Of a DNA stretch of 64,000 bases, positions 24,148-45,936 are shown piece by piece (the stretch's first letter is position 1; the number at the start of each line of letters is the position of its first letter). The position numbers and the translations under genes are program-made. This DNA is from an uncultured Candidatus Saccharibacteria bacterium (lineage in GTDB: Bacteria > Patescibacteriota > Minisyncoccia > Phycocordibacterales > CAYGLL01): contig CAYGLL010000003.1 of assembly GCA_964350935.1 (NCBI GenBank), forward strand, positions 1,487 through 65,486, written 5' to 3'. The notes beneath the pieces were generated by a model. That model did not search any database, was not told where the DNA came from, and worked only from the letters and a program-made list of their open reading frames with translations.

Positions 24148-24951
24148 TTATTCTGGAATTGATTGCCACATGATCTCGAACATCTCACGATGCATTTGAA
24201 TAATGCTTTTGTTTTCAATAACAATGGCGAAAAAGGGCGGGTGGAGCTGGTGGATGATTATGCGTTTAGGAATAATCACGAGGTTTGTTGTTAGAAGTGT
24301 TTTATCAGGGAGCATTTTTATTTCTACTCCGTATAGCCCTCTTTCTCGTTTGAGTTTTTGTGAAAGATCTGAATTTTGAAACAACGCCCGAATTTTAAAG
24401 TTCATCTTTGCTCGTCGACGAATGAAATCTTCAAAATATTCTGGGTCGAGTGCCATCCACGGCTCCATGTGAGAAAGTACCAAATAATCTTTAAAGGGTT
24501 CGGCGTCTTTGAGCAATCCTTCGTAGACCGATTTGATCCCCTCAAGCCCTTCATAGTATTTAATGAAACTCTCCCCTCCCTTTAGGTTGTAGAGCGCCAT
24601 AAATTCTCCAAGATTTTTTCTGAAATCCTCTTTGCGTCGCTCGAGAAGTGATTCAATTTTTTCAGGATTCTCGGCCTCAAAGTATTTTTTTAAACCTCGA
24701 AGTTCAATTTTCATCAAACCTTTCTGTTTTAAGGTTTCGAGGATTGAATAAACAGTTGTTCGCTTCAATTCTGCAGCGCGCGAGATCGAAAGCACCGTGC
24801 TTGGACCTAAAGATAGAGCAGAAAAGTAGACAGACGCCTCGTTTTCAGAAAGCCCGGTATCGGTAAGTAGCGAGGTAATTTTGTTGTTTTTCATATAAAC
24901 GTCGGAAAATCCGACAACAGTAATACTATGTAATATAAGGATATTTGTCAA
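24148..24951 (-). CDS. TrmB-family transcriptional regulator (paralog 1 of 4)
   Basis: N-terminal wHTH LSENEASVYFSALSLGPSTVLSISRAAELKRTTVYSILETLKQKGL plus the TrmB C-terminal domain. The start is likely at the internal MKNNK. Confidence 0.65.
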   Translation of the reverse strand: MTNILILHSITVVGFSDVYMKNNKITSLLTDTGLSENEASVYFSALSLGPSTVLSISRAAELKRTTVYSILETLKQKGLMKIELRGLKKYFEAENPEKIESLLERRKEDFRKNLGEFMALYNLKGGESFIKYYEGLEGIKSVYEGLLKDAEPFKDYLVLSHMEPWMALDPEYFEDFIRRRAKMNFKIRALFQNSDLSQKLKRERGLYGVEIKMLPDKTLLTTNLVIIPKRIIIHQLHPPFFAIVIENKSIIQMHREMFEIMWQSIPE

Positions 24952-25055
24952 TAAATATGGTATCTGGTCGACAAAATAGACATAACTTTACAAATATGTA
25001 AAAATATTGCATAGAAACACCAGTCCTACCGCTGGGCTGAAACACTACCTGCTCC

Positions 25056-25340
25056 ATGAAAACTAAATCGATCTATCTGTTCACTGATTCAAAGTCATTC
25101 GAAGCCGCCATTCGGGCACGAGCGGAAAAACATGATTTGTTGATAGTTTCCGATCCAGTCGCTGCGACCTTCGTAGTGACGGACTCCCCATACTTTGCTA
25201 GGAAAGAACTGTTAAAGTTTGGCAAGCCCATTTTCTGTGTCAAATGGCATGAGGAGAAACCTCCGGTCATTCTGATCAAGAGCAGTGACACAGATTTTGC
25301 CTTCGAGACATTTTTTTCATTGGTTTCAGACGGGAGATAA
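25056..25340 (+). CDS. hypothetical small protein (paralog of 25614-25886)
   Basis: Shares DSKSFE..KP.F..IK.SS.D with the downstream paralog. Confidence 0.4.
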   Translation: MKTKSIYLFTDSKSFEAAIRARAEKHDLLIVSDPVAATFVVTDSPYFARKELLKFGKPIFCVKWHEEKPPVILIKSSDTDFAFETFFSLVSDGR

Positions 25341-25360
25341 AAACACTCGAAAGGAAAATT

Positions 25361-25588
25361 ATGACAGCAAAAATCATTGCGTATGTGTTGTCGACCTTGG
25401 GATTAAGCAGCTTCGGGGTCTCAATGTCCTGGACTATGGCCGGAGCTTTCAGATGGGATCAGTTAATTCCAAAAAGGCTCAGAGAAAGAGGGGATGCACC
25501 AGAGTTATTGATGTGTGTCGTGTGCACTATCGCATTTATCCTGACGCTCATTGGAATACTGTCTTTGCAGGATTTGGCCAAAAATTAA
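25361..25588 (+). CDS. small two-TM membrane protein
   Basis: 75 aa with RBS aggaaaattATG, lying between the two paralogs. Confidence 0.4.
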   Translation: MTAKIIAYVLSTLGLSSFGVSMSWTMAGAFRWDQLIPKRLRERGDAPELLMCVVCTIAFILTLIGILSLQDLAKN

Positions 25589-25613
25589 CCTCAACACCAG
25601 AAAGGAAACAAAA

Positions 25614-25886
25614 ATGAAAAAAATCTACGTCCACACAGATTCGAAGTCTTTTGAGGAATTGGCAAGAGTGTTGGTGATTGAAGCAAAATTGGCGATAGCG
25701 GCAAATTTGCAGGAGGCGGATATCATCATCACAAATGAAGCGTTAGTACCAGAAAGTCTGGAAAAATTAAACAAGCCATTCTTTTACTTTGGTTACGCTG
25801 ACCCGACAGAGCCTTTTATCAAGGTATCGTCGAGAGATGTAAGCCATCGGAAGACTCTCGAGATATTTCTGAGCACCCTCCGTTAA
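25614..25886 (+). CDS. hypothetical small protein (paralog of 25056-25340)
   Basis: Start taken at MKKIYVHTDSKSFE with RBS aggaaacaaaaATG. The track ORF has an upstream extension. Confidence 0.4.
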   Translation: MKKIYVHTDSKSFEELARVLVIEAKLAIAANLQEADIIITNEALVPESLEKLNKPFFYFGYADPTEPFIKVSSRDVSHRKTLEIFLSTLR

Positions 25887-25971
25887 GGTGTGTGGACAGA
25901 AAATCCCAAAGTTCAAACCTCTGTTGAAAACACAAACTCGTTCTGGGCTAGCGTCTAGGACGAGTTTTTTG

Positions 25972-27525: not shown

Positions 27526-27628
27526 ATAAATGTTGCTATAGTATAACAACTAAATTAGTTAATGCAAAGAGGTAGCTGAAACAAGAGAAAAACACCGCTC
27601 CACACTCGGAGCGGTGTTTTTCATAAAC

Positions 27629-27985
27629 TTACTTCATGTGTTGTTTGCAGGTCGATGCGGCAGGGTTCGCGTTCAGTCTCTCTTCCTCAATCGGAGAGTT
27701 GCAGACGCTACAGCTTCCGAATGTCCCCTTCTCGATTCGGACAAGCCCGTCTTTGAGTTCGTTGAAGCGGATCTCAAGTTGCTTCAGGATCGCCGTGTGA
27801 TCTTCAAATTCTTCGATTGAGTCAGCGACCTCATTTTCATCTGCTTTATCAACGTCCATTACCGCAGGTGTCGCCTCCCAGTCTGAAGGATTTTTCGGAT
27901 TTTGCCGCCCGACGCTTTTTAATTCCTCCTCAACTTTCTCAAGTTCAGTCTGAATTTTCCCTTTGTATTTATTGGTGTCTACCAT
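27629..27985 (-). CDS. DksA/TraR-family C4 zinc-finger protein
   Basis: C-terminal CSVCNSPIEEERL..C motif. Confidence 0.65.
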   Translation of the reverse strand: MVDTNKYKGKIQTELEKVEEELKSVGRQNPKNPSDWEATPAVMDVDKADENEVADSIEEFEDHTAILKQLEIRFNELKDGLVRIEKGTFGSCSVCNSPIEEERLNANPAASTCKQHMK

Positions 27986-28027
27986 AGCCCTATTGTACCA
28001 AATCGTTTTGAGAAAGCGACCGCGAGG

Positions 28028-28906: not shown

Positions 28907-28917
28907 ATGTTTATTAA

Positions 28918-31705: not shown

Positions 31706-32286
31706 CTATTTTCTGTTGTAGTATTCTTCCAACGTGCTAAACGAGATTCCTCGTTCGGGATATTCCACGACCCACTCTCGGGCGTCACTCGTACCTGCAG
31801 GACGAACATGAAGGGCATCTCCCATCGACAGAATGATTAGCGAGTCACTCCACTTCACGGAAAACTGAGATGTCCTGTTTGTTCCCCGTGCGGTTGTGAT
31901 GATCTGCGGGTCTCCGTCGAGCTTCGAAACAAATCCTTTTTTCGGAGACTGTATTTGAGAGAGCGTGTGAACACGTACCAGTACCGGTGCGAGTTCGTGT
32001 GATCTCTCAAGAAGCTGATCATCAGGTGATCGGGTGATGCGAATACCGGCCCCTCGTTCAATCTCACAGGCTACCACGTAGTTGTTGAGAATGGGGGGTG
32101 GGTCTTCCGTAGAAAACGGAATCCATGTTTTTTTCTTCCCCGGGCATCCCAGGGAAAACCCGAAATGTGGTCCCGATTGGGAAACAGCAATACCGTCGAT
32201 AAGGCGAAGGCTCCCTACACCCTCAGAACTTCGCAGTTCATGAGGGGTCTCTTCATGTTGGAAGAACACAGTATATGTTCTCATTA
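31706..32286 (-). CDS. hypothetical protein
   Basis: Start chosen at MRTYTVFFQHEE. The track ORF has a 94-aa N-terminal extension that looks unlikely to be real. Confidence 0.3.
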
Positions 32287-32372
32287 GTTTTAACCTTTCT
32301 TTGAAGAGCGTTACTCCATGTAAGAGTACACAAAGATAGTATTTTGTCAAAATTTGATCGCTCAATGTTTGT

Positions 32373-32412
32373 AAATAAAAAAAGGCGCCGTGCACAACCT
32401 GTGCACGGCGCT
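32373..32412 (-). terminator. rho-independent terminator after GC-rich gene
   Basis: ggcgccgtgcacaacctgtgcacggcgcc with a T7 run on the minus strand. Confidence 0.6.
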
Positions 32413-32438
32413 TGAGAAGGCATGAGCCTTCGAGGAAC

Positions 32439-33626
32439 TTATGGCTGTTTGACACCGACAGTCTCAGCGGCCGGAGTGCAACCTTCCGCAACAACCTCGA
32501 GTGTGAGTTTGTCGAGCGCGACCGCAGTCGTGCCCGGCCGACGCGTGTTGCGTTTCGGCGGAGCAACGGACTTGTTTCCGGCAGGCTTTTCGGCCTGCTT
32601 GCGGGCCGGTTGAACGGTGTCAGTCACCGGACTTGCAGTCGCGGTCGTTTCCGCAGGCGCATCTGGCGTGGCGGTAACCGTGATGAGCACGGGGCCCTCG
32701 GCGTGGCCGGCGGGAACAAAGGTCCCCTCCGGCTTACCAGGAACCCAGAGCATTTCACCAGCGACAGGAGCCGTGGGCGGGAGAGCGGCGATCTGCTTTC
32801 TCGACGCTTTCGGAAACTCACGCTTCACGCGCGGGTCAGCGACCTCAACGTAGATGGCATCCTTTCCGGACCCGATGCGCTTCTCGAAGGCGAAGTCCTC
32901 GCCGACGAAGCTCGTGGATCGCTCCAGGAGTTCACCGAGGTGTCCGTAGAACGCCTGCACACGCTTGCGCCCTTTGCCAGTTTCGCTTGTCGGCCCCTCA
33001 AACTGCCAGACGCGGTACACGTCGTTCGTGACTCCCGGAGGGAAACTCCGGGGGTCGGCGCACAGAGAGCGACTGCCGTCCGCGTTGCGACGTTCCCACT
33101 TGGTTTCGGCCGTGAGGACGATTGCTCCCGCACCAGTGGTATGGAACGGAGCCAATGGGTCGCCTTTGGCGAGCCGAGGGTACTCGGCGTTGAAGTCAGC
33201 GAGCGTCCCCTCGAAGTAGGGCTGGTCTGCCTGCGCTGCGCCGTTTGAGGTGCAGTTCACATGTGTCGCGAAGTAGTACGGACGACCCGCGATTTCCTTC
33301 ACCGCGTCGGAGTAGTGAAACCCGACGCCGACGAGGAAGGTTAGGAATCCCCCCTCAGGGCGACGTGAGAGTTCCGGTTGAATGAGCACGACCTGCGTGC
33401 CCTGCTCGAACCTGAAGTCTCCGAGTTCACCGGCGGTTTCGGGGAGTTCCCGTCCGGCAACGATCTTATAGACGTTGCCGAGCGAGAAGTGAACCCCGCG
33501 CTGACCACTTTCATGGTCGGCGACGCTGATGAAGCCGAACTTCTTCTCCCGGTTGACGTAGGTCACGTAACCGACGATGACTTCGACGTTGCCGCGTTTG
33601 GTTTTGAGTACGAGTTTGCTGTTCAT
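32439..33626 (-). CDS. hypothetical protein with N-terminal cold-shock-domain-like fold; strongly GC-rich (foreign-looking)
   Basis: 395 aa with N-terminal GYVTYVNREKKFGFISV resembling a CSD. The DNA is about 60%+ GC against a ~45% background. Confidence 0.45.
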   Translation of the reverse strand: MNSKLVLKTKRGNVEVIVGYVTYVNREKKFGFISVADHESGQRGVHFSLGNVYKIVAGRELPETAGELGDFRFEQGTQVVLIQPELSRRPEGGFLTFLVGVGFHYSDAVKEIAGRPYYFATHVNCTSNGAAQADQPYFEGTLADFNAEYPRLAKGDPLAPFHTTGAGAIVLTAETKWERRNADGSRSLCADPRSFPPGVTNDVYRVWQFEGPTSETGKGRKRVQAFYGHLGELLERSTSFVGEDFAFEKRIGSGKDAIYVEVADPRVKREFPKASRKQIAALPPTAPVAGEMLWVPGKPEGTFVPAGHAEGPVLITVTATPDAPAETTATASPVTDTVQPARKQAEKPAGNKSVAPPKRNTRRPGTTAVALDKLTLEVVAEGCTPAAETVGVKQP

Positions 33627-33774
33627 TTCGATGTGCCTTTCAGTGCTAGTTTTCTCTGAGGTGGCGATAGCCTTATCCAGGTAGAGTTACCCGAGACCTT
33701 AGTGAAAACGTATCTGGTGCAATCTTATCATAAATAAACCATATTGTCAATAGTCGTAGGATGGAGTTTTCGGC

Positions 33775-33807
33775 ATACAAAAACCCCTCAAAATGGGGGT
33801 TTTTTGG
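33775..33807 (-). terminator. bidirectional rho-independent terminator
   Basis: aaaaacccctcaaaatgggggtttttt. Confidence 0.55.
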
Positions 33808-33826
33808 CTCTATTTTGATATTGATA

Positions 33827-34372
33827 TTAGCCGCGCTGAGCTCGTTGTCGTTGACTACCGCGCACCTGCCCCATCAGGTATTTACGCTGATTTTCGTCGA
33901 GATCGATAAAGTCGTCTGCAGCCTCAATAAGCTTTGCTGACGTCGATTTTCCAAATGAAACAACCTCAACCTGGCATCCTTCGTTTGTTTTCAAATACTC
34001 AACCAAAGGCACGAAATCGCCATCTCCTGAAAGAAGAATGACAGCATCAAGCTTGGGCGCAAGTTTAACGGCATCAATCGCAAGTCCCACATCCCAGTCA
34101 GCTTTTTTTGCTCCGCTTCCGAAAATTTGAAGATCTTTAACCTTTGTTTCGATACCCATTTTACCCAGGGCCTCAAAAAATGCCTGTTCTTCGCCGGATT
34201 CTGTTGAAATGACATAGGCGACCGCACGAATGAGTGATCGCTCGGCAACCGCATCTTTGACGATCTGACCGAAATTTACTTTGGTATGATAAAGGTTTTT
34301 GGCGCTATGGTAAAGGTTTTGCGTATCAATGAATACACCAACACGCTGTTCTTTGTGTTTAATAATTGACAT
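33827..34372 (-). CDS. NYN-domain (LabA-like) protein
   Basis: VGVFIDTQNLYHSAK...ILLSGDGDFVPLVEYLK. Confidence 0.7.
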   Translation of the reverse strand: MSIIKHKEQRVGVFIDTQNLYHSAKNLYHTKVNFGQIVKDAVAERSLIRAVAYVISTESGEEQAFFEALGKMGIETKVKDLQIFGSGAKKADWDVGLAIDAVKLAPKLDAVILLSGDGDFVPLVEYLKTNEGCQVEVVSFGKSTSAKLIEAADDFIDLDENQRKYLMGQVRGSQRQRAQRG

Positions 34373-34911: not shown

Positions 34912-35871
34912 TTGGAAGTTGTCTCAATTTCCAATATGTCGCACAATATTTGTATGGAGATTGTTAACTACAAACGTGAGTTCCTCGAATATCTTGAGCT
35001 TGAAAAAGGGCGGAGCCTTAAAACAATTGAAAATTATGATCGATATCTCTCACATTTTATTGAACAAAGTAAGGTTCGCTTTGCGAGTGACATAACCGAC
35101 AGCTGTGTAAAACAGTTTCGTCTCGAGTTGAACCGTCAGCTTGTCCCCCACTCATCTGCGCACAGCCGCCAAACGCTTAAAAAGAAAACTCAAAACTATT
35201 ACCTCATCGCGCTACGTGTTTTCCTCAAGTATCTTATACGTCAGGGGGTTAAAACGTTATCACCGGATCGAATTGAGCTTGCACGTTTAGGTGAGCGATC
35301 CCTTGACCTCATTTCAGGAACCGAACTTTCACGTCTGTTGGCCGCGCCTTCTGGCGATGAGCTTAAGGACGTAAGAGATAAGGCTATACTGGAGCTTCTC
35401 TTTTCAACCGGACTACGTGTTTCTGAGGTTGCTTCATTGCCGCGCGATATTGATATCTCTCACGACGAACTTTCGGTGCGCGGAAAGGGTGAAAAGGTGC
35501 GCGTCGTCTTTATTTCTCCGACCGCAAAGGAGGCAGTGAAAAAATATCTTCAGAAACGAAAAGATATGAACGATATGTTGTTCGTAAATATTAAAAAAGG
35601 ATCGGGTGAAGAAATGAGCGCACCTCTCACCTCGCGTTCGATTGAACGTATTGTAAAATTTTACGCGATTAAAGCCGGTATCTCAAAAAAAGTTACGCCG
35701 CACGTCATTCGCCACAGTTTTGCTACCGATCTTTTGCGCAACGGCGCAGATCTACGCTCGGTGCAGATGCTTCTTGGTCACTCAAATATTTCGACAACTC
35801 AAATTTATACGCATATCACTGACAAACAACTAAAAGAAATTCACAAAAAATTTCACAATCGTGGAAGTTAG
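34912..35871 (+). CDS. xerD: tyrosine site-specific recombinase XerC/XerD family
   Basis: C-terminal HVIRHSFATDLLRNGADLRSVQMLLGHSNISTTQIYTH carrying the catalytic R-H-R-Y motifs. Confidence 0.8.
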   Translation: MEVVSISNMSHNICMEIVNYKREFLEYLELEKGRSLKTIENYDRYLSHFIEQSKVRFASDITDSCVKQFRLELNRQLVPHSSAHSRQTLKKKTQNYYLIALRVFLKYLIRQGVKTLSPDRIELARLGERSLDLISGTELSRLLAAPSGDELKDVRDKAILELLFSTGLRVSEVASLPRDIDISHDELSVRGKGEKVRVVFISPTAKEAVKKYLQKRKDMNDMLFVNIKKGSGEEMSAPLTSRSIERIVKFYAIKAGISKKVTPHVIRHSFATDLLRNGADLRSVQMLLGHSNISTTQIYTHITDKQLKEIHKKFHNRGS

Positions 35872-39373: not shown

Positions 39374-39444
39374 CGGGGCGTAGTGCAACGGTAGCATACT
39401 TGATTTGGGATCAAGCGGTCCGAGTTCAAATCTCGGCGCCCCGA
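39374..39444 (+). tRNA. tRNA-Pro (anticodon TGG), no encoded CCA
   Basis: Acceptor CGGGGCG/CGCCCCG, anticodon loop TTTGGGA and T-loop TTCAAAT. Confidence 0.65.
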
Positions 39445-39665: not shown

Positions 39666-39986
39666 ATGTCAACAACTTTTAAGAAAAATACTGAAGACTT
39701 TGTGTGCGAGAAGTGTGGTTTTTCAGTGGTAGGTGACGGATACACTAACCATTGTCCAAAATGTTTGTGGAGCAAGCACGTCGACGTAAATCCGGGGGAT
39801 AGGGCAGAGGTGTGTAAAGGAATGATGGAACCTCGTGACGTTGTGTTTGAGCGCGGGGGATACGTTCTTGTTCATCGCTGCGTGAAGTGTGGCTATGAAA
39901 AAAGAAATAAGGTTGATGAGCGTGATGATTTTGATAAAGCAATTGAAATTGCAAAAAAGAACTCGCGGAAGTATATGGATATGTAG
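39666..39986 (+). CDS. RNHCP-domain zinc-ribbon protein
   Basis: FVCEKCGF..GYTNHCPKCLWSKH...HRCVKCGYEK. Start taken at MSTTFKKN. Confidence 0.5.
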   Translation: MSTTFKKNTEDFVCEKCGFSVVGDGYTNHCPKCLWSKHVDVNPGDRAEVCKGMMEPRDVVFERGGYVLVHRCVKCGYEKRNKVDERDDFDKAIEIAKKNSRKYMDM

Positions 39987-40199
39987 GCCCGCTCCAACTG
40001 TTTTTACAAAACACGCATATCCGTCTACTGACGGATTGCTATGCTTGGCTCGTCAGCCTGCGCAATGTTTTGTAAATGCCAGTTCTCGCTTTGGTGGCTA
40101 GTGGTATACTTCGTATTCTAACTTCGGATACAAATTGCTCTGCGAAGAGCAATTTGTTACGATACAGCGCACTGTGAGGTGTATTTTGAAATAAGAAAT

Positions 40200-40270
40200 G
40201 CGGGACTAGTTTAATGGTAGAATAGAAGTTTTCCAAACTTTTGGTGGGAGTTCGATTCTCCCGTCCCGCA
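40200..40270 (+). tRNA. tRNA-Gly (anticodon TCC), no encoded CCA
   Basis: Acceptor GCGGGAC/GTCCCGC, anticodon loop TTTCCAA and T-loop TTCGATT. Confidence 0.65.
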
Positions 40271-40430
40271 CAGCAATGAGCGCAGCGAATATGCTGTGCG
40301 AGGACAGCAAGCACCTACGTGCTTGCGTGGGAGAATCGAAAAGCTTCTCCCATATTTTCGAGTCATTCTTATGCTGAGAAAATGGGAAAGCTGCACTGCT
40401 CCTGTAGGGAGCGATTTCGTCCCGCACAGA

Positions 40431-41198
40431 TTAATTTGTCACAGGAGTTGAGATTTTCCAGATTTCCTCAAACTGAACCTTGATTAGTTGTGCAAAATCT
40501 TTACTTTGGACCACGAAACCAAAACCTTCTTTTTCTGATGAAAGAAATGCCACTTTGTCTTCGTACATCCAGTAACCCATATCCCAGGTCATACTTTCGG
40601 GAGCGATTCGTAAATCTCGCAAGTGTTCTTCACCGGACCCTAAATAAGGAAATTTTTTCGTATCTAAAACACGATCTTTTGGCCAAATGACCCTTAAAAA
40701 TATGTTTCTCTTAATTCTTTTTTCGTTTAAATCTTTCAGATATTCATCTCCAAGTATTTTCATCATCTCACTCATCGGCCACATGAGAATTGTCTCTATG
40801 TTTCGATTCATCATTATGTGGTTGATCACCTGCTTCACGCCTTCTTTTCCGGAATAGAATTTAATTCGAGGCTCGATAGAATCAGTTTTACGTAAAAGAT
40901 CCGAAAGAGATTTTTTAAATTCACTTTTTTCATTTTCAAGTGCTTTGATTTTGTCGTTCAAGAGTTCCTCAATGTTCCTAACATTATCAATTGAGAATAT
41001 TTTCTTACCGTCTTCACTTCGCTGCGTTACTAAACCATGCTGAATTAGAATTTTAAGGTGATCGTAGACTGATGAGCGGGGGATAGAAACTCTTTCGGCA
41101 AGTTTTCGCGCGTTAGTCGGCCCCTTACTTACAAGTTCATTAAAAACTTGCTGGGCAATTGGTGATAGATCGAGTTCCTCAAAGATTTTCTTAAACAT
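40431..41198 (-). CDS. TrmB-family transcriptional regulator (paralog 2 of 4)
   Basis: N-terminal wHTH NARKLAERVSIPRSSVYDHLKILIQHGLV and a TrmB-like C-terminus. Confidence 0.6.
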   Translation of the reverse strand: MFKKIFEELDLSPIAQQVFNELVSKGPTNARKLAERVSIPRSSVYDHLKILIQHGLVTQRSEDGKKIFSIDNVRNIEELLNDKIKALENEKSEFKKSLSDLLRKTDSIEPRIKFYSGKEGVKQVINHIMMNRNIETILMWPMSEMMKILGDEYLKDLNEKRIKRNIFLRVIWPKDRVLDTKKFPYLGSGEEHLRDLRIAPESMTWDMGYWMYEDKVAFLSSEKEGFGFVVQSKDFAQLIKVQFEEIWKISTPVTN

Positions 41199-41324
41199 CC
41201 TTCTATTATAAGGCTTTATAGTTATTTGTCGAAATTCGACGACAGATAGACATATTTGACAAAGTTTGATAAAGTATGTAAAGAAAAATCAGAGTATTAG
41301 GAATTCAACCGAATTCCCTCTGGT

Positions 41325-41624
41325 TTGAAAAGTTGTTTGAAAGTTCAACTTATGAAAGAAATTCTTCACAATGTCCTTATCCTCTGTCACGTCGTAACCA
41401 TTATTGGGGCATTGGGTTTCCCCTTCATCTCCCTCACAGTGTGTGGGGTAATGGCTATTCGTGAGAGCTTGGAGGATCTTGATTATTACGGTATCGACGG
41501 TTTTATCAAGGAAAAGTGGTGCAACAGACATGATCGGCTGCTCAGTTCGTTTGCTCTATGTATCTTTCCGATTTGCACACTAGTTACTTTGGGATGGATG
41601 GCGGTAAAACTGTTTGGCCCATAA
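41325..41624 (+). CDS. small membrane protein
   Basis: 99 aa with two or three TM helices, divergent from the TrmB-like gene. Confidence 0.35.
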   Translation: MKSCLKVQLMKEILHNVLILCHVVTIIGALGFPFISLTVCGVMAIRESLEDLDYYGIDGFIKEKWCNRHDRLLSSFALCIFPICTLVTLGWMAVKLFGP

Positions 41625-41877
41625 AAAGAAAGGAAAAATTATGTACGTGATACCAACTGTGCTACTCATCTGCATCATAGAACTATTCATTCTGCCCAAA
41701 ATCAAATGTGTTGGGCGGTATTGGCAGGTCCAGGCTGAACACAAAGCGAAGTTAGGAGAGGAGGAGCGCTACAACTACCCCGATCCAGACCGAATGACCA
41801 ACCAGTGGCTTGCCGGTTCAGCTCTTCTCTACCTCGGACTCTTGGCTCTGGGAATTAGTCTTAGTTTCATCCATTGA
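41614..41877 (+). CDS. small membrane protein
   Basis: 87 aa with TM helices at both ends, overlapping the upstream ORF by 11 bp. Confidence 0.35.
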   Translation: MAHKKKGKIMYVIPTVLLICIIELFILPKIKCVGRYWQVQAEHKAKLGEEERYNYPDPDRMTNQWLAGSALLYLGLLALGISLSFIH

Positions 41878-41902
41878 GCCATGTGTTTTAGCTCTTCATA
41901 AC

Positions 41903-41970
41903 AACCTGATCGCAGGATCAGGTTGTTTTTCTATTTGCAAAAAGAAATATTTTTTGAATTTACCTCGGAC
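41903..41970. repeat. ~70-bp repeat copy 1 (terminator hairpin + conserved tail), shared with 43526-43595
   Basis: aacctgatcgcaggatcaggtt+TTTTT, then ctatttgcaaaaagaaatattttttgaattt, almost identical to the copy at 43526. Confidence 0.6.
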
Positions 41971-41984
41971 AGTCTGCTTTGCAC

Positions 41985-42800
41985 TTACTTCTCCTTACTT
42001 ATACTCCAGATTGTATCGAACCAGCCTTTCATGGTGTTGCTGAAGTCGACACTTTCAAACAGTGTTCCGAATATTTCATGTGCCATGGTGATAATTGCTA
42101 CGCGCGAGTCATAGATCATAATCATAGAGTCAAAATTGATTGATTTCGGGGGAATGCGCACTTCGCGGTTGTTTGTCGGGTCGGCCTCATATTTTTTGTT
42201 AAATCCTTCAAGCGATTCTGCATACAGGATTTTATTTTTTATTCCCCACTTAGACCGGTCTTTAATGTAGTTAGTCACATATTCTTTCCCGAATCGTTCA
42301 TAGATACCTTCGTACACAGCTGTCCGAACAAGTTTTTCTTTTGAGGTAAGACTGTCCCGGTATAATTTTTTTACACCTTCAGTTCCTTCAAAATATTGAA
42401 CGCGCGGCTGAACAATAGGGCCTTTATATTTTTTTTTTCCTAGCGATTCGCTTAATTTTTTAACATCAGCCTCTAATTTTTTGAGATCCGACAATTTTTC
42501 AGAATGAAGGGATAAAAGTTTTTCAGGCCCCGCAAACATTATTTTTCGGCCATACTCTGCTCCCAGATTCCAGCACAAACCCTTTTCTTCGAGTGATTCA
42601 ATGACGTTATAGGCGTTAGATCGGGTAAGTCCGGTGAGTTTGGCGAGAGCACTCACTACGAGTGGTGGGGAAGTGATTCCCTGAAGATATACACGTTGTT
42701 CGATTTCTGTAACCCCTAGTCTACTTAGTATTAAGGCTGTATTATTCTGTTGTCCAAATTCTGTGGGCATATATACATTATCATATATCAATGATATCCT
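41985..42800 (-). CDS. TrmB-family transcriptional regulator (paralog 3 of 4)
   Basis: wHTH LVVSALAKLTGLTRSNAYNVIESLEEKGL. The start is set at MPTEFGQ, because the track's longer ORF would overlap the divergent gene. Confidence 0.55.
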   Translation of the reverse strand, partial: RISLIYDNVYMPTEFGQQNNTALILSRLGVTEIEQRVYLQGITSPPLVVSALAKLTGLTRSNAYNVIESLEEKGLCWNLGAEYGRKIMFAGPEKLLSLHSEKLSDLKKLEADVKKLSESLGKKKYKGPIVQPRVQYFEGTEGVKKLYRDSLTSKEKLVRTAVYEGIYERFGKEYVTNYIKDRSKWGIKNKILYAESLEGFNKKYEADPTNNREVRIPPKSINFDSMIMIYDSRVAIITMAHEIFGTLFESVDFSNTMKGWFDTIWSISKEK

Positions 42801-42818
42801 TTTGTCAATTGGGCTAAT

Positions 42819-43514
42819 GTGGCTCAAGTGAACATTGAAAAGGCGCTTATGAAGAAAACAGAACTTACGAAACTCATTTTGGAAAAACTTGGTGGTGAAA
42901 GTGAAGCCCGGAAGTTTCTCCTTGGCGAAAAGCGGTTGGTTGATGCAGATGTATATCAACGAATATTACATATGGAGAATGTTGTGGTTGGTGACCAGCA
43001 AGTAGCAGACTCGATACCATACAGACCACTGTGCATTCTAAAAACAGGACCTCGGTTTTTTGGGAATCGTCGGCTACAGCTTCTGTGTGCAAAAGTGGTG
43101 GGATTGGAAGTTGAACCGGAGCTCGGAGCGTGGTGGTTACGAACACGCCGTTCCATAACGACCAAAAGTAATATTGAGTTGGAGTTGGTTACGGTTACAC
43201 CAAAAAGCCTCGGTGTTACCCAGTATCATAATGGGGGTTACAAAAAGATATACGAAAAAGCATGGGAATTAGGTCTCTCTGTATGTCCTTTCGATCTAGC
43301 ATTCGACATTGCGATGCTCCAAAAGCAAAGAAAATTGGAGGGGGACTATATAATCGGTAAAAAGTCCCCACCCTCCGGTGAGATTGCAGGAGTTTTTACT
43401 CGGGGTAGGAAGAAGCCTTTTGTGAAAATCGTGTATCTCGAATCAAGTTTATGTGATCCTGAGGAAAAATGGATCTTTGTTTGGCGAAAGGCACTTTACA
43501 GCGAGAATGTGTAA
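42819..43514 (+). CDS. hypothetical protein
   Basis: 231-aa ORF divergent from the TrmB-like paralog; the start is uncertain. Confidence 0.35.
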   Translation: MAQVNIEKALMKKTELTKLILEKLGGESEARKFLLGEKRLVDADVYQRILHMENVVVGDQQVADSIPYRPLCILKTGPRFFGNRRLQLLCAKVVGLEVEPELGAWWLRTRRSITTKSNIELELVTVTPKSLGVTQYHNGGYKKIYEKAWELGLSVCPFDLAFDIAMLQKQRKLEGDYIIGKKSPPSGEIAGVFTRGRKKPFVKIVYLESSLCDPEEKWIFVWRKALYSENV

Positions 43515-43525
43515 TAATTCGTAAA

Positions 43526-43595
43526 CGGCCTGATCGCAAGATCAGGCCGTTTTTCTACTTACAAAAAGAAATATTTTTTGAATTTGCTGCGAAAC
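43526..43595. repeat. ~70-bp repeat copy 2
   Basis: cggcctgatcgcaagatcaggccg+TTTTT, then ctacttacaaaaagaaatattttttgaattt. Confidence 0.6.
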
Positions 43596-44392
43596 ATGTC
43601 GGCTTTGCGTTTGTTGCGCGTAACAGAAAACCGGTTTTTACCTTTTTGTGAAAGGATTTTTTCGAGTTCTTGTTTTTCAGCTTCTCCAAAATCCTTACTC
43701 TTTTGGTAAAAGGATTCAATATCACCGCATACTTTTTTATCGAGCCAGACCTCGATCACAAAATCACCAATAATGTTCACGTAGTAATTATTTTTTTCAA
43801 ACAATCCTTTTTCGAGCATTTCGTAGTGTGTAGTGGTCGTTCCTAAAAATGTTTTGGCAAGTTTATCAAGCGGAGTACGATTGGCACACAATATAGCTAG
43901 TTTTTGTCTCCGACCAGCAATTTTTTTAAAAAGCCCTGTCTCGTTTTCAGTTCGCGCGAGTAAAAACCATTCGTGAGGGTTGTAAATAAGCACGGGGAGT
44001 TGCGGGGAGGAGGTTTCAACGAGCGTAATAAAAACGTGCGACCAAAATGCGTCAGTAAGCACTGGATTTTTGAAGTAGTACTGAATTTTTTCTCCTTGGT
44101 GCAGATTGAGAAAGGTGTTGTTAGGAGAATCGGTATTTCTGATTGCGTGTTCGGCTTTTCTAAAAAATTCCTCCATTGAAGAAATCCAGACACCGCTCAA
44201 ACTGATATTTTTTTTGTGAACCACGACCACCTCGGTTTTTTTAAGTTTTCGGATCGTCTGATAAACACCCTGTTTGGTGGTTTTTGGCCGCTTGTTTTTG
44301 ATTATTTCAATGAGTTTAACGATTGGGAGCGGGCCACTTTGAAGGTGTACAAAAATATAGTCTTCAGTTGAGATCGGGGATAGGAGATTCAT
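43559..44392 (-). CDS. divergent TrmB-like/wHTH regulator (paralog 4 of 4)
   Basis: N-terminal HTH-like IVKLIEIIKNKRPKTTKQGVYQTIRKLKK. The C-terminus, FYLQKEIFFEF in the other frame, lies inside the shared repeat. Confidence 0.4.
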   Translation of the reverse strand: MNLLSPISTEDYIFVHLQSGPLPIVKLIEIIKNKRPKTTKQGVYQTIRKLKKTEVVVVHKKNISLSGVWISSMEEFFRKAEHAIRNTDSPNNTFLNLHQGEKIQYYFKNPVLTDAFWSHVFITLVETSSPQLPVLIYNPHEWFLLARTENETGLFKKIAGRRQKLAILCANRTPLDKLAKTFLGTTTTHYEMLEKGLFEKNNYYVNIIGDFVIEVWLDKKVCGDIESFYQKSKDFGEAEKQELEKILSQKGKNRFSVTRNKRKADMFRSKFKKYFFL

Positions 44393-44540
44393 AGAGATAC
44401 CCTAGCAGAGGAGTACCTAAAAGTAAACAAATTATTTACTTTTTATTATAAAAATAAGGATATTTTGACATAAACTACTAAATATTGTATAGTTGCAGCA
44501 GAAGAAAGCTATTGTTGCTTTCAGAACTTTGAAAGGAAAC

Positions 44541-44822
44541 ATGAAAAAAATCTTGTTAAGTGTCCTCTACTTGTCAACACTGGTTTGTTTGGTAGGAGTT
44601 GCCTGGAAATTCTGCGGTCCGATCAAACACACCAAAGAAATTGTGAACGTTGTTTATCGGGGTTACCGAACAAGTTTTGAAGTTCACCGAGTTCGAGTAA
44701 ACGAATTTACCGGAGCGTTTTGGATGTTCGGCATTTACGTCATTCCTTTTTTAGCTTTTGCAGGTATCAGCCTAATAGGTTTGAGTGATATCGGAGCTTC
44801 AAAAAAGGAAAATGAGGGCTGA
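44541..44822 (+). CDS. small membrane protein
   Basis: Start at MKKILLSVLYLSTLV. It has two TM helices. Confidence 0.35.
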   Translation: MKKILLSVLYLSTLVCLVGVAWKFCGPIKHTKEIVNVVYRGYRTSFEVHRVRVNEFTGAFWMFGIYVIPFLAFAGISLIGLSDIGASKKENEG

Positions 44823-45013
44823 ATTGAGATCTCATGTCACATGCGCCGCTAACAAAACGCACCAACCCGAGCACTATTTCGGCGGAATAGTGCTCACTGT
44901 CTCGGAATGTGTGTTCCGACTGATGAGTCCGAGCCTAAACCGCTAAGCGGTCGGCCAAGCAGGACGAAACAGGGAAGTAGTTCCTTGAAAACAACAAAAA
45001 ACCTACAAAATCT

Positions 45014-45631
45014 ATGAACTGCACAAACATGAACCCGGTAATTCTGATTGAAGAAATCAAGAAGGTGGAAGCGGTAGTTACACCAATTCCGATCGATAAA
45101 GACGCAAACATCCGCGTCTTACTTGAAGAGTGGTCCAAGCGCCACCCAGTCATTCGGGACGTAATTGATGGAAAGACAACTGTCATGGAGTACCTGACAC
45201 CGTTTGCGGAAGACTTGAGCGGCCTCAGCCTCTTCAAGCGGTTGAAACTCAACCACAAACACGATCTGCGGGTGCTTAATTTCACTGACGAAGCACTTTC
45301 AGTGAAGGGGTATGAGGGGGGAAGTAGCGGAAGGGGAGGAGGGCACTATGTCTCAATAACCGAAGGACCAGATGGCTTACCGTATGTCGGAGGAACTTTT
45401 TGGTTTCTTATGACAATCGCACTTCTGGTTTTAAGCTTAGGTTTCTTCTCTGAACCAGCTCGAGGTTGGCCTGCAGGAATGTTTTGCTTCGCTTTGTCTT
45501 GTTTCTGCGGCCTTGCCACCTATTCCACATGGTTTTATGGACCGTTCGAGTTCACACGAGAACTTGTTCCGGTTCTGAAGGATAGGGCAGAATACCTCGA
45601 CGAAATCATCAGGCGCTCTTACCCGCGCTGA
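45014..45631 (+). CDS. hypothetical membrane protein
   Basis: 205 aa with a Gly-rich segment SSGRGGGH followed by two TM helices. Confidence 0.35.
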   Translation: MNCTNMNPVILIEEIKKVEAVVTPIPIDKDANIRVLLEEWSKRHPVIRDVIDGKTTVMEYLTPFAEDLSGLSLFKRLKLNHKHDLRVLNFTDEALSVKGYEGGSSGRGGGHYVSITEGPDGLPYVGGTFWFLMTIALLVLSLGFFSEPARGWPAGMFCFALSCFCGLATYSTWFYGPFEFTRELVPVLKDRAEYLDEIIRRSYPR

Positions 45632-45663
45632 TTCGGTAGGTTTCTCAACAAGAAAGGTGAAAT

Positions 45664-45936
45664 ATGAAAAAAATTACTGCACCGATTCTGGCATGGGCAA
45701 GGAGAAAAGGGGCACAAATCGATGAGTTCTTCGCAAAGAAATCAGAAGATCAGCTTACAAAATACGCAATTGTCACCCTCGTTAGTTTGGTGGCTCTTGA
45801 TCTCGGGTTGTTGATTTTGCAGATCAAACTCAATTCCCCGGGCTGGTTGGTCTGTGTTCAGGGTTTCTTTTGGCTCGTCACTGTATTATTTAGGGCGGGG
45901 TTCTTTGCAGTCAGTTCGACGGGACGTGATCTTTGA
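45664..45936 (+). CDS. small membrane protein
   Basis: 90 aa with two TM helices and a terminator at 45945-45977. Confidence 0.35.
   Translation: MKKITAPILAWARRKGAQIDEFFAKKSEDQLTKYAIVTLVSLVALDLGLLILQIKLNSPGWLVCVQGFFWLVTVLFRAGFFAVSSTGRDL

What the first reader, a model, noticed from the sequence alone, without database searches (positions are those of the whole stretch)
24148..45936. Four paralogous TrmB-like regulators, each paired with divergent small membrane/hypothetical genes; two modules are a tandem duplication sharing a ~70-bp terminator repeat
TrmB-family wHTH regulators at 24148-24951, 40431-41198, 41985-42800 and 43559-44392 all lie on the minus strand. Each is divergent from a plus-strand set of very small, mostly membrane, proteins:
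- 25056-25886: two paralogous ~90-aa proteins flanking a 75-aa TM protein.
- 41325-41877.
- 42819-43514.
- 44541-45936.

The segment 41903-41970 is repeated almost exactly at 43526-43595. It contains a terminator hairpin, a conserved tail and the last codons of the TrmB-like gene. This indicates a recent tandem duplication of a regulator-plus-cargo module. The function of the cargo genes is unknown. Regulator-controlled small membrane proteins that diversify by duplication fit toxin/immunity-like, phage-exclusion or surface-variation systems.
Basis: partly seen in the sequence, partly recalled or inferred. Interest (0 to 1): 0.55.

Follow-up and report, generated by a model that had tools for sequence, protein, structure and literature searches.

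The report
TrmB-like regulators in a variable island
Three related gene regulators and one look-alike sit next to small, genome-specific genes of unknown function in an uncultured Patescibacteria genome. The repeated 62-base segment marks where one regulator unit was inserted, not a duplicated module. The locus is mostly ordinary but contains an overlooked self-cleaving hammerhead RNA.

Summary
R1 (24148-24894), R2 (40431-41198) and R3 (41985-42770) are true TrmB/TrmBL2-type paralogues, 23-26% identical over their full length. R4 (43559-44392) is not a TrmB member by sequence. It belongs to a conserved Patescibacteria family with no Pfam match, and its AlphaFold model has a winged helix plus a PLD-like domain, the same layout as TrmB.

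The 62-nt repeat is real (89% identical, with two compensatory stem pairs). It is R4's own terminator plus its last eight codons, left as a decayed relic beside R3. R3 and R4 share nothing else, so there was no tandem module duplication.

The closest relative lacks 40275-43559 (R2, C2, R3, C3) entirely. There, tRNA-Gly lies 210 bp from R4. The modules are therefore strain-specific insertions in a variable interval.

The cargo proteins have almost no detectable relatives and are not conserved alongside the regulators. Orthologous regulators elsewhere face ABC-transporter binding proteins or unrelated genes. Conserved palindromes over each regulator's own promoter suggest autoregulated local repressors.

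There is no support for a toxin or defence role. A probable type III hammerhead ribozyme (44894-44975) lies inside the fourth cargo operon, within a 474-bp insertion.

The parts
24148..24894 (-). R1, a TrmB/TrmBL2-type regulator (248 aa from ATG 24894)
   Evidence: Pfam PF01978 E 3e-14. Orthologues at 46-60% identity occur in about 15 Patescibacteria genomes. The family profile hits TrmBL2 (5bpd_A) over its full length, E 6e-9.
24900..24916 (.). R1 proximal operator candidate, GTCG-N7-CGAC, 21 nt upstream of the ATG
   Evidence: A GTCG-N7-CGAC-type site lies within about 25 nt of the annotated ATG in 11 of 16 R1-group upstream regions (sequences).
24966..24983 (.). R1 distal operator candidate (GTCW-N4/5-TGTCGAC), upstream of R1's -35 and facing the C1 genes
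   Evidence: Present in 15 of 16 R1-group upstream regions, about 65 bp from the proximal site. Background frequency is 0.058 per kb.
25056..25340 (+). C1a, a 94-aa ORF with no predicted TM segment and no detectable relatives
   Evidence: Paralogue of C1c (31% identity, E 4e-8). No other homologue in 5.8e9 clusters. Codon score is ambiguous at -0.007.
25361..25588 (+). C1b, a 75-aa ORF with one predicted TM segment
   Evidence: ORF list and hydropathy. Codon score -0.056, so weak coding support.
25614..25886 (+). C1c, a 90-aa paralogue of C1a
   Evidence: codon score 0.047.
40200..40271 (+). tRNA-Gly(UCC), left border of the variable interval
   Evidence: ARAGORN and Rfam. The same tRNA borders the interval in L051 and L047.
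40407..40429 (+). Decayed copy of the tRNA-Gly 3' end (att-like relic)
   Evidence: CGTCCCGCACAG is repeated at 40262 and 40418; 1 of 100 shuffles reached two matches. Sequence read.
40431..41198 (-). R2, a TrmB/TrmBL2-type regulator (255 aa)
   Evidence: PF01978 E 4e-11. Orthologues: L010 78%, L004 46%, L005 41%.
41228..41261 (.). R2 operator candidate, GTCG-N5-CGAC plus an adjacent GTC repeat, overlapping R2's -35
   Evidence: Conserved in the window, L010 and L005. The only GTCG-N5-CGAC in the window. Predicted promoter TCGACA-16-TATAAT.
41290..41322 (+). Conserved sequence and hairpin upstream of the C2 ORFs, a probable 5' leader (CAGAG..GGAATTC..GAATTCC..CTCTG)
   Evidence: The window and L010 align through this element, and similarity stops at the ORF start.
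41352..41624 (+). C2a, a 90-aa ORF with two predicted TM segments (doubtful gene)
   Evidence: Codon score 0.011 against 0.058 for antisense ORF 41289-41531. A public gene call used the antisense ORF. No homologue in related loci.
41641..41877 (+). C2b, a 78-aa ORF with two predicted TM segments
   Evidence: Codon score 0.106. No homologue in related loci.
41900..41990 (.). Repeat copy 1: terminator hairpin T1 (41900-41927) plus a decayed relic of the R4 3' end
   Evidence: The tail reads KFKKYFFL followed by CAA instead of a stop. It is 25/26 identical to the R4 3' end of L051.
41985..42770 (-). R3, a TrmB/TrmBL2-type regulator (261 aa from ATG 42770)
   Evidence: PF01978 E 1e-7. Orthologues: L011 73%, L013 73%, L005 67%. 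Predicted promoter TTGACA-17-TATGAT at 42808-42780.
42849..43514 (+). C3, a 221-aa protein with no predicted TM segment, from a very rare family
   Evidence: An exhaustive phmmer search gave 7 hits, of which 3 are plausible relatives with E about 1e-4. Alignment A6. No Pfam match. The AF2 model is poor (pLDDT 59.7) and gave no fold match.
43524..43585 (.). Repeat copy 2: terminator hairpin T2 (43523-43552) plus the true last 8 codons and stop of R4
43559..44392 (-). R4, a winged-helix plus PLD-like-domain regulator from a conserved Patescibacteria family with no Pfam match
   Evidence: 86 homologues at 37-76% identity. AF2 pLDDT 87.6. Foldseek hits: NucT E 1.2e-4 and TrmB 3qph E 1.3e-4. hhalign against the TrmB-like family gives only E 0.002, probability 13-17%.
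44423..44439 (.). R4 operator candidate, GTAAAY-N5-RTTTAC, at R4's -35
   Evidence: Conserved in 5 genomes whose R4 proteins are 60-76% identical to the window's (alignment A7). Unique in the window.
44465..44493 (+). Predicted C4 promoter (TTGACA-17-TATAGT)
   Evidence: Both hexamer regions are conserved in A7.
44504..44522 (+). Conserved hairpin upstream of the C4 genes, a probable 5' leader (GAAAGC-N7-GCUUUC)
   Evidence: Conserved in 4 genomes, with one compensatory pair in L047 (GAAACC/GGTTTC).
44541..44822 (+). C4a, a 93-aa ORF with two predicted TM segments; part of a 474-bp insertion absent from L051
   Evidence: (score 0.089).
44869..44895 (+). 12-bp hairpin directly abutting the ribozyme cleavage site
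   Evidence: MFE fold of 44860-44985, z -3.5.
44894..44975 (+). Probable type III hammerhead ribozyme (predicted cleavage after GUC, between 44901 and 44902)
   Evidence: Rfam RF00008, 40.5 bits (gathering cut-off 48.5), E 2.5e-5 for the whole window. The core sequences CUGAUGAG and CGAAAC are intact.
45014..45631 (+). C4b, a 205-aa protein with hydrophobic segments in its C-terminal part
   Evidence: Its N-terminus is conserved in L051. Otherwise no homologue. Codon score 0.067.
45664..45936 (+). C4c, a 90-aa protein with two predicted TM segments
   Evidence: 31% identical over 64 aa to an 88-aa ORF beside the R4 orthologue in L049 (E 1e-5). Codon score 0.098.
45944..45973 (+). Terminator-like hairpin ending the C4 unit

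Best explanation
The locus is not a duplicated module family. It is a set of independent, locally acting transcription regulators that are probably self-repressing.

**The regulators.** There are three old TrmB/TrmBL2-type paralogues (R1, R2, R3). The fourth, R4, comes from a separate conserved Patescibacteria family with the same winged-helix plus PLD-like layout.

**How each probably works.**
- R1, R2 and R4 each have a conserved palindrome over or flanking their own promoter, inside a divergent control region. No operator could be defined for R3.
- Binding there most likely represses the regulator gene and co-controls the facing unit.
- Release would depend on an unknown ligand sensed by the C-terminal domain.

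**The cargo.**
- The facing genes are interchangeable.
- In this genome they are small ORFs, most with predicted TM segments, that have almost no detectable relatives.
- In other genomes the same regulators face ABC-transporter binding proteins or unrelated genes.

**Origin of the arrangement.**
- R2+C2 and R3+C3 occupy a 3.3-kb strain-specific insertion between tRNA-Gly and the 3' end of R4, an interval that varies between genomes.
- The 62-nt repeat arose when the R3-C3-terminator unit was joined next to R4. The displaced terminator and last roughly 90 nt of R4 remain as a decaying relic (copy 1).
- Both hairpins have kept their pairing, consistent with working terminators for C2b and C3.

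**The hammerhead.**
- The C4 unit has gained a 474-bp cassette, C4a plus a type III hammerhead.
- The hammerhead probably cuts the transcript between C4a and C4b.

**Shown:** the homologies, the repeat, the insertions relative to relatives, and the conserved motifs. **Inferred:** operator function, repression, ligand sensing, the order of insertion, and ribozyme activity.
For: **Regulators**
- R1-R3 are homologous to each other and to TrmB.
- The family profile matches TrmBL2 over its full length, E 6e-9.
- R4 is a conserved family. Its model has pLDDT 87.6 and matches PLD-fold nucleases and TrmB 3qph.

**Candidate operators**
- R1 group: GTCG-N7-CGAC within about 25 nt of the ATG in 11 of 16 regions, and the distal site in 15 of 16, against a background of 0.058 per kb.
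- R2 group: the palindrome overlaps the -35 in 3 genomes.
- R4 group: GTAAAY-N5-RTTTAC is conserved in 5 genomes.
- Among the window's intergenic control regions, each palindrome occurs only in its own (one further GTCG-N7-CGAC at 62776 was not examined).

**Cargo is swapped**
- No cargo protein except C4c and the C4b N-terminus is found near orthologous regulators.
- R3 orthologues face Peripla_BP_6 genes in 3 genomes. R1 orthologues face NMT1-type ABC transporters in 2 genomes.

**Insertion**
- L051 has tRNA-Gly, then 210 bp, then R4.
- Two further relatives place RNHCP next to the R4 3' end, 3 bp away in one and 465 bp in the other.
- L047 holds 5 kb of different genes in the same interval.
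- GC content is 0.41 at 40-44 kb, against about 0.47 in most of the window.

**Repeat as a relic of R4**
- The C-terminal FKKYF is conserved in the R4 family.
- L047 and L051 end in KFKKYFFL*.
- Copy 1 carries that reading with a lost stop and an indel.

**Hammerhead:**
Against: - No binding, expression or cleavage data exist for any part of this locus.
- No operator could be defined for R3.
- R4's link to TrmB rests on a predicted structure and a weak profile match (probability 13-17%).
- No integrase lies inside 40275-43559, so the insertion mechanism is unknown.
- The polarity (insertion here rather than deletion in relatives) is inferred from four relatives only.
- No strain with an intermediate state was found. 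The metagenome scan gave one unrelated hit.
- Coding status of C1a, C1b and C2a is uncertain.
- The hammerhead scores below Rfam's gathering threshold because of a 28-nt insertion in stem II.
Confidence: 0.62

Rival explanations
1. One reading: units 41900-43523 and 43524 onward are a recent tandem duplication of a regulator-plus-cargo module. The cargo is then diversifying as a toxin/immunity, phage-exclusion or surface-variation system.
For: - The two copies are 1624 bp apart. Each precedes a minus-strand winged-helix regulator that faces plus-strand ORFs.
- R3 and R4 share a domain layout at fold level.
Against: - Similarity is confined to about 62-115 nt at 89%. The rest of the units shows none: R3 against R4 gives no blastp hit, and hhalign probability is 13-17%.
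- R3 and R4 each have separate orthologue series in other genomes at 60-76% identity, so they diverged long before the repeat formed.
- L051 lacks the R3 unit.
- Cargo proteins have no PADLOC hits, and no viral relatives were found for C3 or the regulators.
Confidence: 0.04
2. The repeat is a pair of attachment sites. On this view R3-C3 is a small integrative cassette placed by a site-specific recombinase acting at the R4 terminator and 3' end, with the 24 identical bases as the crossover core. The tRNA-Gly to R4 interval would then be a dedicated cassette-capture site.
For: - A perfect 24-nt block sits next to diverged arms.
- The element restores the 3' end of R4, as integrative elements do.
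- The interval varies between genomes (0.2, 3.3 and 5 kb).
- A decayed tRNA 3' copy lies nearby.
- A tyrosine recombinase gene lies at 34912-35871.
Against: - There is no recombinase inside the 1.6-kb unit.
- The recombinase at 34912 has a 61% orthologue next to the CCA-enzyme gene in L045, so it looks like the housekeeping Xer.
- The 24-nt block is also 25/26 identical in L051, whose DNA is otherwise 73% identical, so coding constraint on the R4 C-terminus explains it.
- R3 orthologues elsewhere are not flanked by such repeats or by R4.
- Homology-facilitated illegitimate recombination would give the same structure.
Confidence: 0.2
3. Several of the small 'cargo' ORFs are not genes. On this view the conserved functional products of the divergent promoters are the structured RNA leaders (41290-41322, 44504-44522) and the ribozyme, and the ORFs downstream are chance or very young.
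For: - The leaders are conserved across genomes while the ORFs behind them are unrelated.
- C1a, C1b and C2a have codon scores inside the range of spurious ORFs.
- C1a and C4b have no homologues in 5.8e9 clusters.
Against: - C2b, C4a, C4b, C4c and C1c score above the 95th percentile of spurious ORFs in the correct frame only; C3 scores just below it (0.033 against 0.037).
- C1a and C1c keep protein-level similarity.
- The C4b N-terminus and C4c have relatives beside R4 orthologues.
- C3 belongs to a small but real family.
- The ORFs are preceded by GAAAGG-type ribosome-binding sites.
Confidence: 0.12

Closest known systems
TrmBL2 / TrmB family of archaeal winged-helix regulators (Pfam PF01978; PDB 5BPD, 3QPH)
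   Same: - R1-R3 have the TrmB winged helix above Pfam's cut-off.
- As a family they align to TrmBL2 over its full length (profile positions 1-247 to chain residues 1-262, E 6e-9).
- Their length is about 250-265 aa.
- Orthologues of R1 and R3 sit divergently from genes for ABC-transporter binding proteins. This resembles the classical TrmB role at the trehalose/maltose transporter genes (own knowledge).
   Different: - They are bacterial (Patescibacteria).
- They lack the extra C-terminal sugar-binding subdomain of the roughly 340-aa TrmB. The match to 3QPH covers only residues 8-105.
- The candidate operators (GTCG-N5/7-CGAC) are not the archaeal TGM motif (own knowledge).
- The ligands are unknown.
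- In this genome they face ORFs with no detectable relatives, not transporter genes.
PLD-fold proteins without catalytic motif, as in the middle domain of TrmB (CDD cd09124, own knowledge); Nuc/NucT nucleases (PDB 1BYR, 6EHI)
   Same: The C-terminal domain of the R4 model matches NucT, Nuc and Zucchini (E 1e-4 to 5e-3), and the whole model matches TrmB 3qph (E 1.3e-4).
   Different: - R4 has no HxK..D motif. The invariant histidine sits in YNPHEWF, so nuclease or phosphodiesterase activity is unlikely.
- There is no sequence-level membership in any Pfam family.
tRNA-linked genomic islands and variable integration hotspots
   Same: - The inserted 3.3 kb abuts tRNA-Gly.
- It is absent from the closest relative and replaced by other genes in another.
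- It has lower GC.
- A decayed tRNA 3' copy and a duplicated gene 3' end mark its junctions.
   Different: - There is no integrase or mobility gene inside it.
- It is very small.
- The second junction repeat derives from a protein gene's 3' end and its terminator, not from the tRNA.
Bacterial type III hammerhead ribozymes that flank variable genes in prophage-like regions (Perreault et al. 2011, PMC3088659)
   Same: - The catalytic core is intact and the RNA has type III topology.
- It lies between small genes of changeable identity, just upstream of a start codon. This matches that paper's observation that bacterial hammerheads flank single genes or short blocks whose identity is not constant, and may cut long transcripts.
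   Different: - It is in a Patescibacteria chromosome, with no integrase or prophage genes beside it.
- There is one ribozyme, not a flanking pair.
- It has a 28-nt insertion in stem II, which puts it below Rfam's gathering score.
- It came in with a 474-bp cassette placed behind a conserved regulator-controlled promoter.

Membership tests
TrmB family (Pfam PF01978) | N-terminal TrmB-type winged helix scoring above Pfam's gathering cut-off (25.6 bits) | tested here: met
   R1 scores 53.1 bits, R2 43.0 and R3 31.9. This applies to R1-R3 only.
TrmB family (Pfam PF01978) | The same test applied to R4 and its family | tested here: not met
   R4 has no hit. None of 39 family members hits TrmB. hhalign probability is 13-17%.
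TrmBL2-type architecture (winged helix, coiled coil and C-terminal domain in about 260 aa) | Full-length collinear match to a solved TrmBL2 | tested here: met
   Profile A5 against 5bpd_A: positions 1-247 match residues 1-262, E 6.2e-9. This applies to R1-R3 as a family.
TrmB sensu stricto (sugar-sensing, about 340 aa) | C-terminal sugar-binding subdomain | tested here: not met
   The proteins are 248-261 aa. The match to 3qph_A covers residues 8-105 only. NCBIfam TrmB equivalog scores lie far below their cut-offs.
PLD superfamily enzymes | PLD fold | tested here: met
   Foldseek on the R4 model: 6ehi E 1.2e-4, 1byr E 6.6e-4, 4ggj E 2e-3. This rests on a predicted structure with pLDDT 87.6.
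PLD superfamily enzymes | Catalytic HxK(x)4D motif | tested here: not met
   The invariant residues of the R4 family include H140 in YNPHEWF, with no lysine two positions on.
Recent tandem duplication of a module | Similarity across the whole repeated unit at about the level seen in the repeat | tested here: not met
   89% identity over 62 nt only. There is no R3/R4 similarity and none among the neighbouring cargo proteins C2a, C2b, C3 and C4a.
tRNA-linked genomic island | Presence/absence polymorphism next to a tRNA gene | tested here: met
   L051 lacks 40275-43559, and L047 has other genes there.
tRNA-linked genomic island | Integrase gene within the island and intact flanking direct repeats of the tRNA 3' end | tested here: not met
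   No recombinase ORF lies in 40275-43559. The only tRNA 3' copy is decayed and just 150 bp from the tRNA.
Hammerhead ribozyme, type III (Rfam RF00008) | Conserved core (CUGAUGA, GAAA, cleavage triplet NUH) and three helices, with helix III open | tested here: met
   GUC, then CUGAUGAG, then CGAAAC. Stems I and II are closed, and helix III has 6 of 7 pairs. The MFE fold shows stems I and II.
Hammerhead ribozyme, type III (Rfam RF00008) | Score at or above Rfam's gathering threshold (48.5 bits) | tested here: not met
   40.5 bits, E 2.5e-5 for the window. The score is lowered by a 28-nt insertion in stem II.
Hammerhead ribozyme, type III (Rfam RF00008) | Self-cleavage | not testable with these tools
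   Needs in vitro transcription, or mapping of the 5' end at 44902.
Toxin-antitoxin or anti-phage defence systems | A recognisable toxin, immunity or defence protein | tested here: not met
   PADLOC gives no cargo hits; the regulators match only through their HTH domains. PHROGs and Pfam give no cargo hits.

The most novel reading that the evidence does not exclude
The conserved unit may be an 'expression socket': regulator, operator, promoter and structured 5' leader together. Patescibacteria would plug exchangeable small genes into it.

**What fits this reading**
- R4 (5 genomes) and R2 (2 genomes) keep the whole control region up to the ribosome-binding site, while the first downstream ORF is unrelated in each genome.
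- One such exchange is caught here as a 474-bp cassette (C4a, a hairpin and a hammerhead ribozyme) with TTGAAA at both junctions.

**What the ribozyme would do**
- It would act as a natural insulator that releases the new gene's mRNA with a 3' hairpin.
- It would also give the old downstream genes a structured 5'-OH end.

A second hammerhead in the same relative position, beside an R1 orthologue in L046, hints that this could recur.
Probability: 0.15. Interest if true: 0.7.

Novelty: new member of a known kind. Interest (0 to 1): 0.35.

Why it matters
**As posed.** The finding is mostly ordinary. Local winged-helix regulators sit in a variable, tRNA-linked stretch of a small uncultured genome, and the tandem-duplication claim is wrong.

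**Points of some value**
- R4 defines a conserved Patescibacteria regulator family with no Pfam match and a TrmB-like fold. Its candidate operator (GTAAAY-N5-RTTTAC) is testable.
- Phylogenetic footprinting gives concrete operator predictions for TrmB-like regulators in a phylum where almost no transcription factor has been studied.
- The regulators' control regions are conserved while the genes they face are swapped. This bears on how genes with no detectable relatives enter and become expressed in reduced genomes.
- A hammerhead ribozyme inside a chromosomal operon of such genes, delivered with an inserted cassette, is a clean natural case for studying ribozyme-mediated operon processing.

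Tried and rejected
- **C3 structure.** AF2 with a 4-sequence alignment gave pLDDT 59.7, and Foldseek against PDB found nothing below E = 1. No inference was drawn.
- **Cargo homologue searches.** C1a and C4b returned only themselves. No deeper alignment or structure could be built.
- **Family libraries.** Pfam, NCBIfam, PADLOC and PHROGs gave no cargo hits.
- **Viral-contig scans.** Searches for the C3 family, R1-R3 and the R4 family found no relatives. Alignment A5 was too divergent to scan with.
- **Metagenome scan for the 24-nt repeat tail.** The aim was to find strains with intermediate states. It gave one unrelated chance hit, L053.
- **Literature.** No paper in the library links TrmB, or hammerheads in this context, to Patescibacteria.
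- **R3 operator.** Orthologue upstream regions share the -35, the -10 and an ATGTAnATATG start region, but no clear common palindrome. A TATCAT-N6-ATGATA repeat in the window is not conserved.
- **Conserved block 41290-41325 as the C-terminus of the antisense 80-aa ORF.** Rejected, because in L010 that frame is closed by a stop just upstream (reading).
- **SD-sequestering switch in the C4 leader.** Dropped, because the alternative pairing is not kept in L047.

Full report
**Setting.** The window looks like a Patescibacteria (CPR, Paceibacteria-type) chromosome.
- It carries PNPase, RNase Y, HU, a Xer-type recombinase, a CCA-adding enzyme and four tRNAs.
- Every related locus recovered comes from a Patescibacteria metagenome-assembled genome, although some records carry other labels.
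- The same genome occurs in three public assemblies.

**The regulators.**
- R1 (24148-24894), R2 (40431-41198) and R3 (41985-42770) all hit Pfam TrmB PF01978 above its cut-off.
- They align with each other over about 250 residues at 23-26% identity (blastp E 1e-14 to 1e-22).
- A 21-sequence family profile matches the solved TrmBL2 structure 5bpd_A from end to end (E 6e-9). It matches TrmB 3qph only in the N-terminal 100 residues. They are therefore short, TrmBL2-type family members without TrmB's sugar-binding subdomain.
- No further copies exist in the window.
R1 starts at ATG 24894 and R3 at ATG 42770, as in the orthologues.

**R4 is different.**
- R4 (43559-44392) has no TrmB, PadR or other hit in Pfam, NCBIfam or PADLOC. 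None of 39 relatives has one either.
- It shows no pairwise similarity to R1-R3.
- It belongs to a well-conserved family of about 277 aa with 86 members at 37-76% identity, all Patescibacteria where named. Invariant motifs are YNPHEWF, NYYxN..GDF..E...D and a C-terminal FKKYF.
- Profile-profile comparison with the TrmB-like family gives a collinear 150-column alignment, but only E 0.002 and probability 13%. With another profile it aligns 37 columns of the winged helix.
- An AlphaFold model built on the family alignment is confident (pLDDT 87.6). It shows a winged helix, a long helix and an alpha/beta domain.
- Foldseek matches that model to the PLD-fold nucleases NucT, Nuc and Zucchini, and to TrmB 3qph (E about 1e-4).
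- The PLD catalytic motif is absent.
- R4 therefore works like a TrmB-type regulator in layout, but it is not a demonstrable family member and certainly not a recent paralogue.

**The cargo.**
- C1a and C1c are paralogues (31% identity, E 4e-8) flanking a 75-aa ORF with one predicted TM segment.
- C2a and C2b each have two predicted TM segments.
- C3 is a 221-aa protein with no predicted TM segment.
- C4a and C4c each have two predicted TM segments, and C4b has hydrophobic segments in its C-terminal part.
- None hits Pfam, NCBIfam, PADLOC or PHROGs.
- C1a and C4b have no homologue in 5.8 billion clusters. C3 has about three weak relatives in an exhaustive search.
- A codon-usage score trained on the window's long genes puts the four regulators with real genes (0.13-0.16).
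  - C2b, C4a, C4b, C4c and C1c score above the 95th percentile of spurious ORFs (0.037). C3 scores just below it (0.033).
  - C1a, C1b and C2a are ambiguous. An antisense ORF scores better than C2a and was the one called in a public assembly.

**Comparative genomics.** A scan of one genome per species with the R1-R3 alignment gave 43 loci.
- Orthologue series exist for each regulator: R1 at 46-60% in about 15 genomes, R2 at 78/46/41%, and R3 at 73/73/67%.
- The cargo does not travel with them. No cargo protein is detectable in any of these loci.
- R3 orthologues are divergent from Peripla_BP_6 binding-protein genes in three genomes. R1 orthologues are divergent from NMT1-type ABC transporters in two, and from unrelated genes elsewhere.
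- R4 orthologues keep a position near HU, with one or more small divergent ORFs between them. Those ORFs differ between genomes.
  - Only C4c has a relative, an 88-aa ORF in L049.
  - The C4b N-terminus is conserved in L051.

**Candidate operators.** Footprinting shows what is conserved.
- *R1 group.* Of 16 upstream regions, 11 have GTCG-N7-CGAC within about 25 nt of the annotated ATG. Fifteen have GTCW-N4/5-TGTCGAC about 65 bp further up, just beyond the -35, against a background of 0.058 per kb. In the window these sites are 24900-24916 and 24966-24983.
- *R2 group.* The window, L010 and L005 share GTCGTCGAATnnCGACAA over R2's predicted -35 (41228-41261).
- *R4 group.* Five R4 upstream regions share GTAAAY-N5-RTTTAC at R4's -35 (44423-44439). 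They also share an extended -10 a few bases before the ATG, both hexamers of the divergent promoter, and a leader hairpin with one compensatory change (alignment A7).
- Among the window's intergenic control regions, each palindrome occurs only in its own; one further GTCG-N7-CGAC at 62776, apparently inside an ORF, was not examined.
- The simplest reading is autorepression, with co-control of the facing unit. This is inferred, not shown.
- For R2, similarity between the window and L010 runs through the promoter, the operators and a 33-nt leader hairpin, and ends at the ORF start.

**The repeat.**
- 41900-41961 and 43524-43585 are 89% identical over 62 nt. Weaker similarity extends to about 41990 and 43616, with a 2-nt indel.
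- The stems differ by two compensatory pairs (AACAACC/GGTTGTT against AACGGCC/GGCCGTT). Both hairpins have a T run on the plus strand. Both are thus plausible terminators, T1 for C2b and T2 for C3.
- The tail of copy 2 is the end of R4 (KFKKYFFL, then stop). This C-terminus is conserved in the family.
- Copy 1 has the same reading with CAA in place of the stop and a frameshift upstream. It lies beyond the R3 stop, so it is a relic of an R4 3' end.
- The 24 identical bases need no special explanation. L051, at 73% overall DNA identity, is 25/26 identical there.

**Insertions.** L051 is the closest relative (R4 76% identical).
- It aligns to RNHCP, tRNA-Gly, R4 with its control region, and the start of C4b.
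- It lacks 40275-43559 and 44535-45008.
- In P0005's contig R4 ends 3 bp from RNHCP. P0003's contig has RNHCP next after R4, 465 bp away.
- L047 has 5 kb of other genes between R4 and tRNA-Gly, including another TrmB gene and a cobalamin-riboswitch-like element.
- R2+C2 and R3+C3 are therefore strain-specific insertions in a variable interval. The region's lower GC fits this.
- The structure C2, T1 with the R4 relic, R3, C3, T2, R4 is what results if an incoming R3-C3-T2-R4 segment recombined within R4 on one side and joined illegitimately about 90 nt inside the resident R4 3' end on the other. Site-specific integration at that end would give the same structure.
- I cannot tell these two routes apart. 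No recombinase lies inside the segment. The Xer-like gene at 34912 has a 61% orthologue next to the CCA-enzyme gene in L045.
- A decayed copy of the tRNA-Gly 3' end at 40407-40429 hints at older integration events.

**Hammerhead.**
- Rfam finds Hammerhead_3 at 44894-44975 on the cargo strand: 40.5 bits against a gathering score of 48.5, E 2.5e-5 for the whole window.
- The alignment shows the GUC cleavage triplet, CUGAUGAG and CGAAAC intact. Stems I and II are closed and helix III has 6 of 7 pairs. A 28-nt insertion in stem II lowers the score.
- The region folds better than any of 200 shuffles (z -3.5). A 12-bp hairpin ends six bases before the predicted cut.
- The ribozyme sits 39 nt upstream of the C4b start codon, inside the 474-bp segment that L051 lacks. 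TTGAAA occurs at both junctions of that segment.
- Cleavage would leave C4a mRNA ending in a hairpin. C4b-C4c mRNA would begin with the folded ribozyme body and a 5'-OH. This is inference.
- A second type III hammerhead lies in L046 (34.9 bits, E 1e-3). It is 20 nt upstream of an ORF with no detectable relatives, in the unit divergent from an R1 orthologue.
- Bacterial hammerheads that flank changeable genes are known from prophage-like regions (PMC3088659).

**Verdict.**
The duplication and toxin/defence interpretations are not supported.
- The locus is a cluster of ordinary local regulators in a variable interval, facing genes with almost no detectable relatives and unknown function.
- Points of modest interest are the R4 family, the concrete operator predictions, the conserved control regions with exchangeable cargo, and the hammerhead.

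Noticed in passing
window 44894-44975 (+): Probable type III hammerhead ribozyme between C4a and C4b, with an intact core and a 28-nt insertion in stem II. Rfam scores it 40.5 bits against a gathering score of 48.5, E 2.5e-5. It lies inside a 474-bp segment (44535-45008) that is absent from the closest relative, L051.
   Followed up: yes
L046 9351-9405 (+): Second type III hammerhead (34.9 bits, E 1e-3) in a Nomurabacteria MAG. It lies 20 nt upstream of a 162-aa ORF with no detectable relatives, about 1.3 kb from an R1 orthologue and on the divergent strand.
   Followed up: partly
L047 2346-2409 (+): AdoCbl-II riboswitch-like match (35.0 bits against a gathering score of 36.5). It lies just downstream of the R4 orthologue and upstream of an ECF-S-component-like gene, in the same variable interval.
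   Followed up: no
window 40407-40429: Decayed copy of the tRNA-Gly(UCC) 3' end, about 150 bp downstream of the tRNA and directly abutting the R2 stop codon. It may be a relic of an older integration.
   Followed up: partly
window 23448-24032 (-): 194-aa protein downstream of R1 on the same strand. It matches phage protein family phrog_23621 (unknown function) at E 3e-38 and has no Pfam hit.
   Followed up: no
window 41290-41322 and 44504-44522 (+): Short hairpins upstream of the C2 and C4 ORFs, probably in their 5' leaders. They are conserved in other genomes (L010; L051, L047, L049) although the ORFs behind them are unrelated.
   Followed up: partly
window 32000-34000: GC rises to 0.55, against about 0.47 elsewhere. 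A 395-aa ORF (32439-33626, -) and a 286-aa ORF (31706-32566, -) have no Pfam hits and are overlapped by long antisense ORFs. This may be foreign DNA.
   Followed up: no
window 62776: The only other GTCG-N7-CGAC palindrome in the window, apparently inside ORF 62327-62980 (-). It was not examined.
   Followed up: no
L040, L046, L036, L023, L028, L042: TrmB-like regulator genes recur within a few kb of the HU and RNase Y genes in several Patescibacteria genomes. R4 occupies that neighbourhood in this genome.
   Followed up: partly
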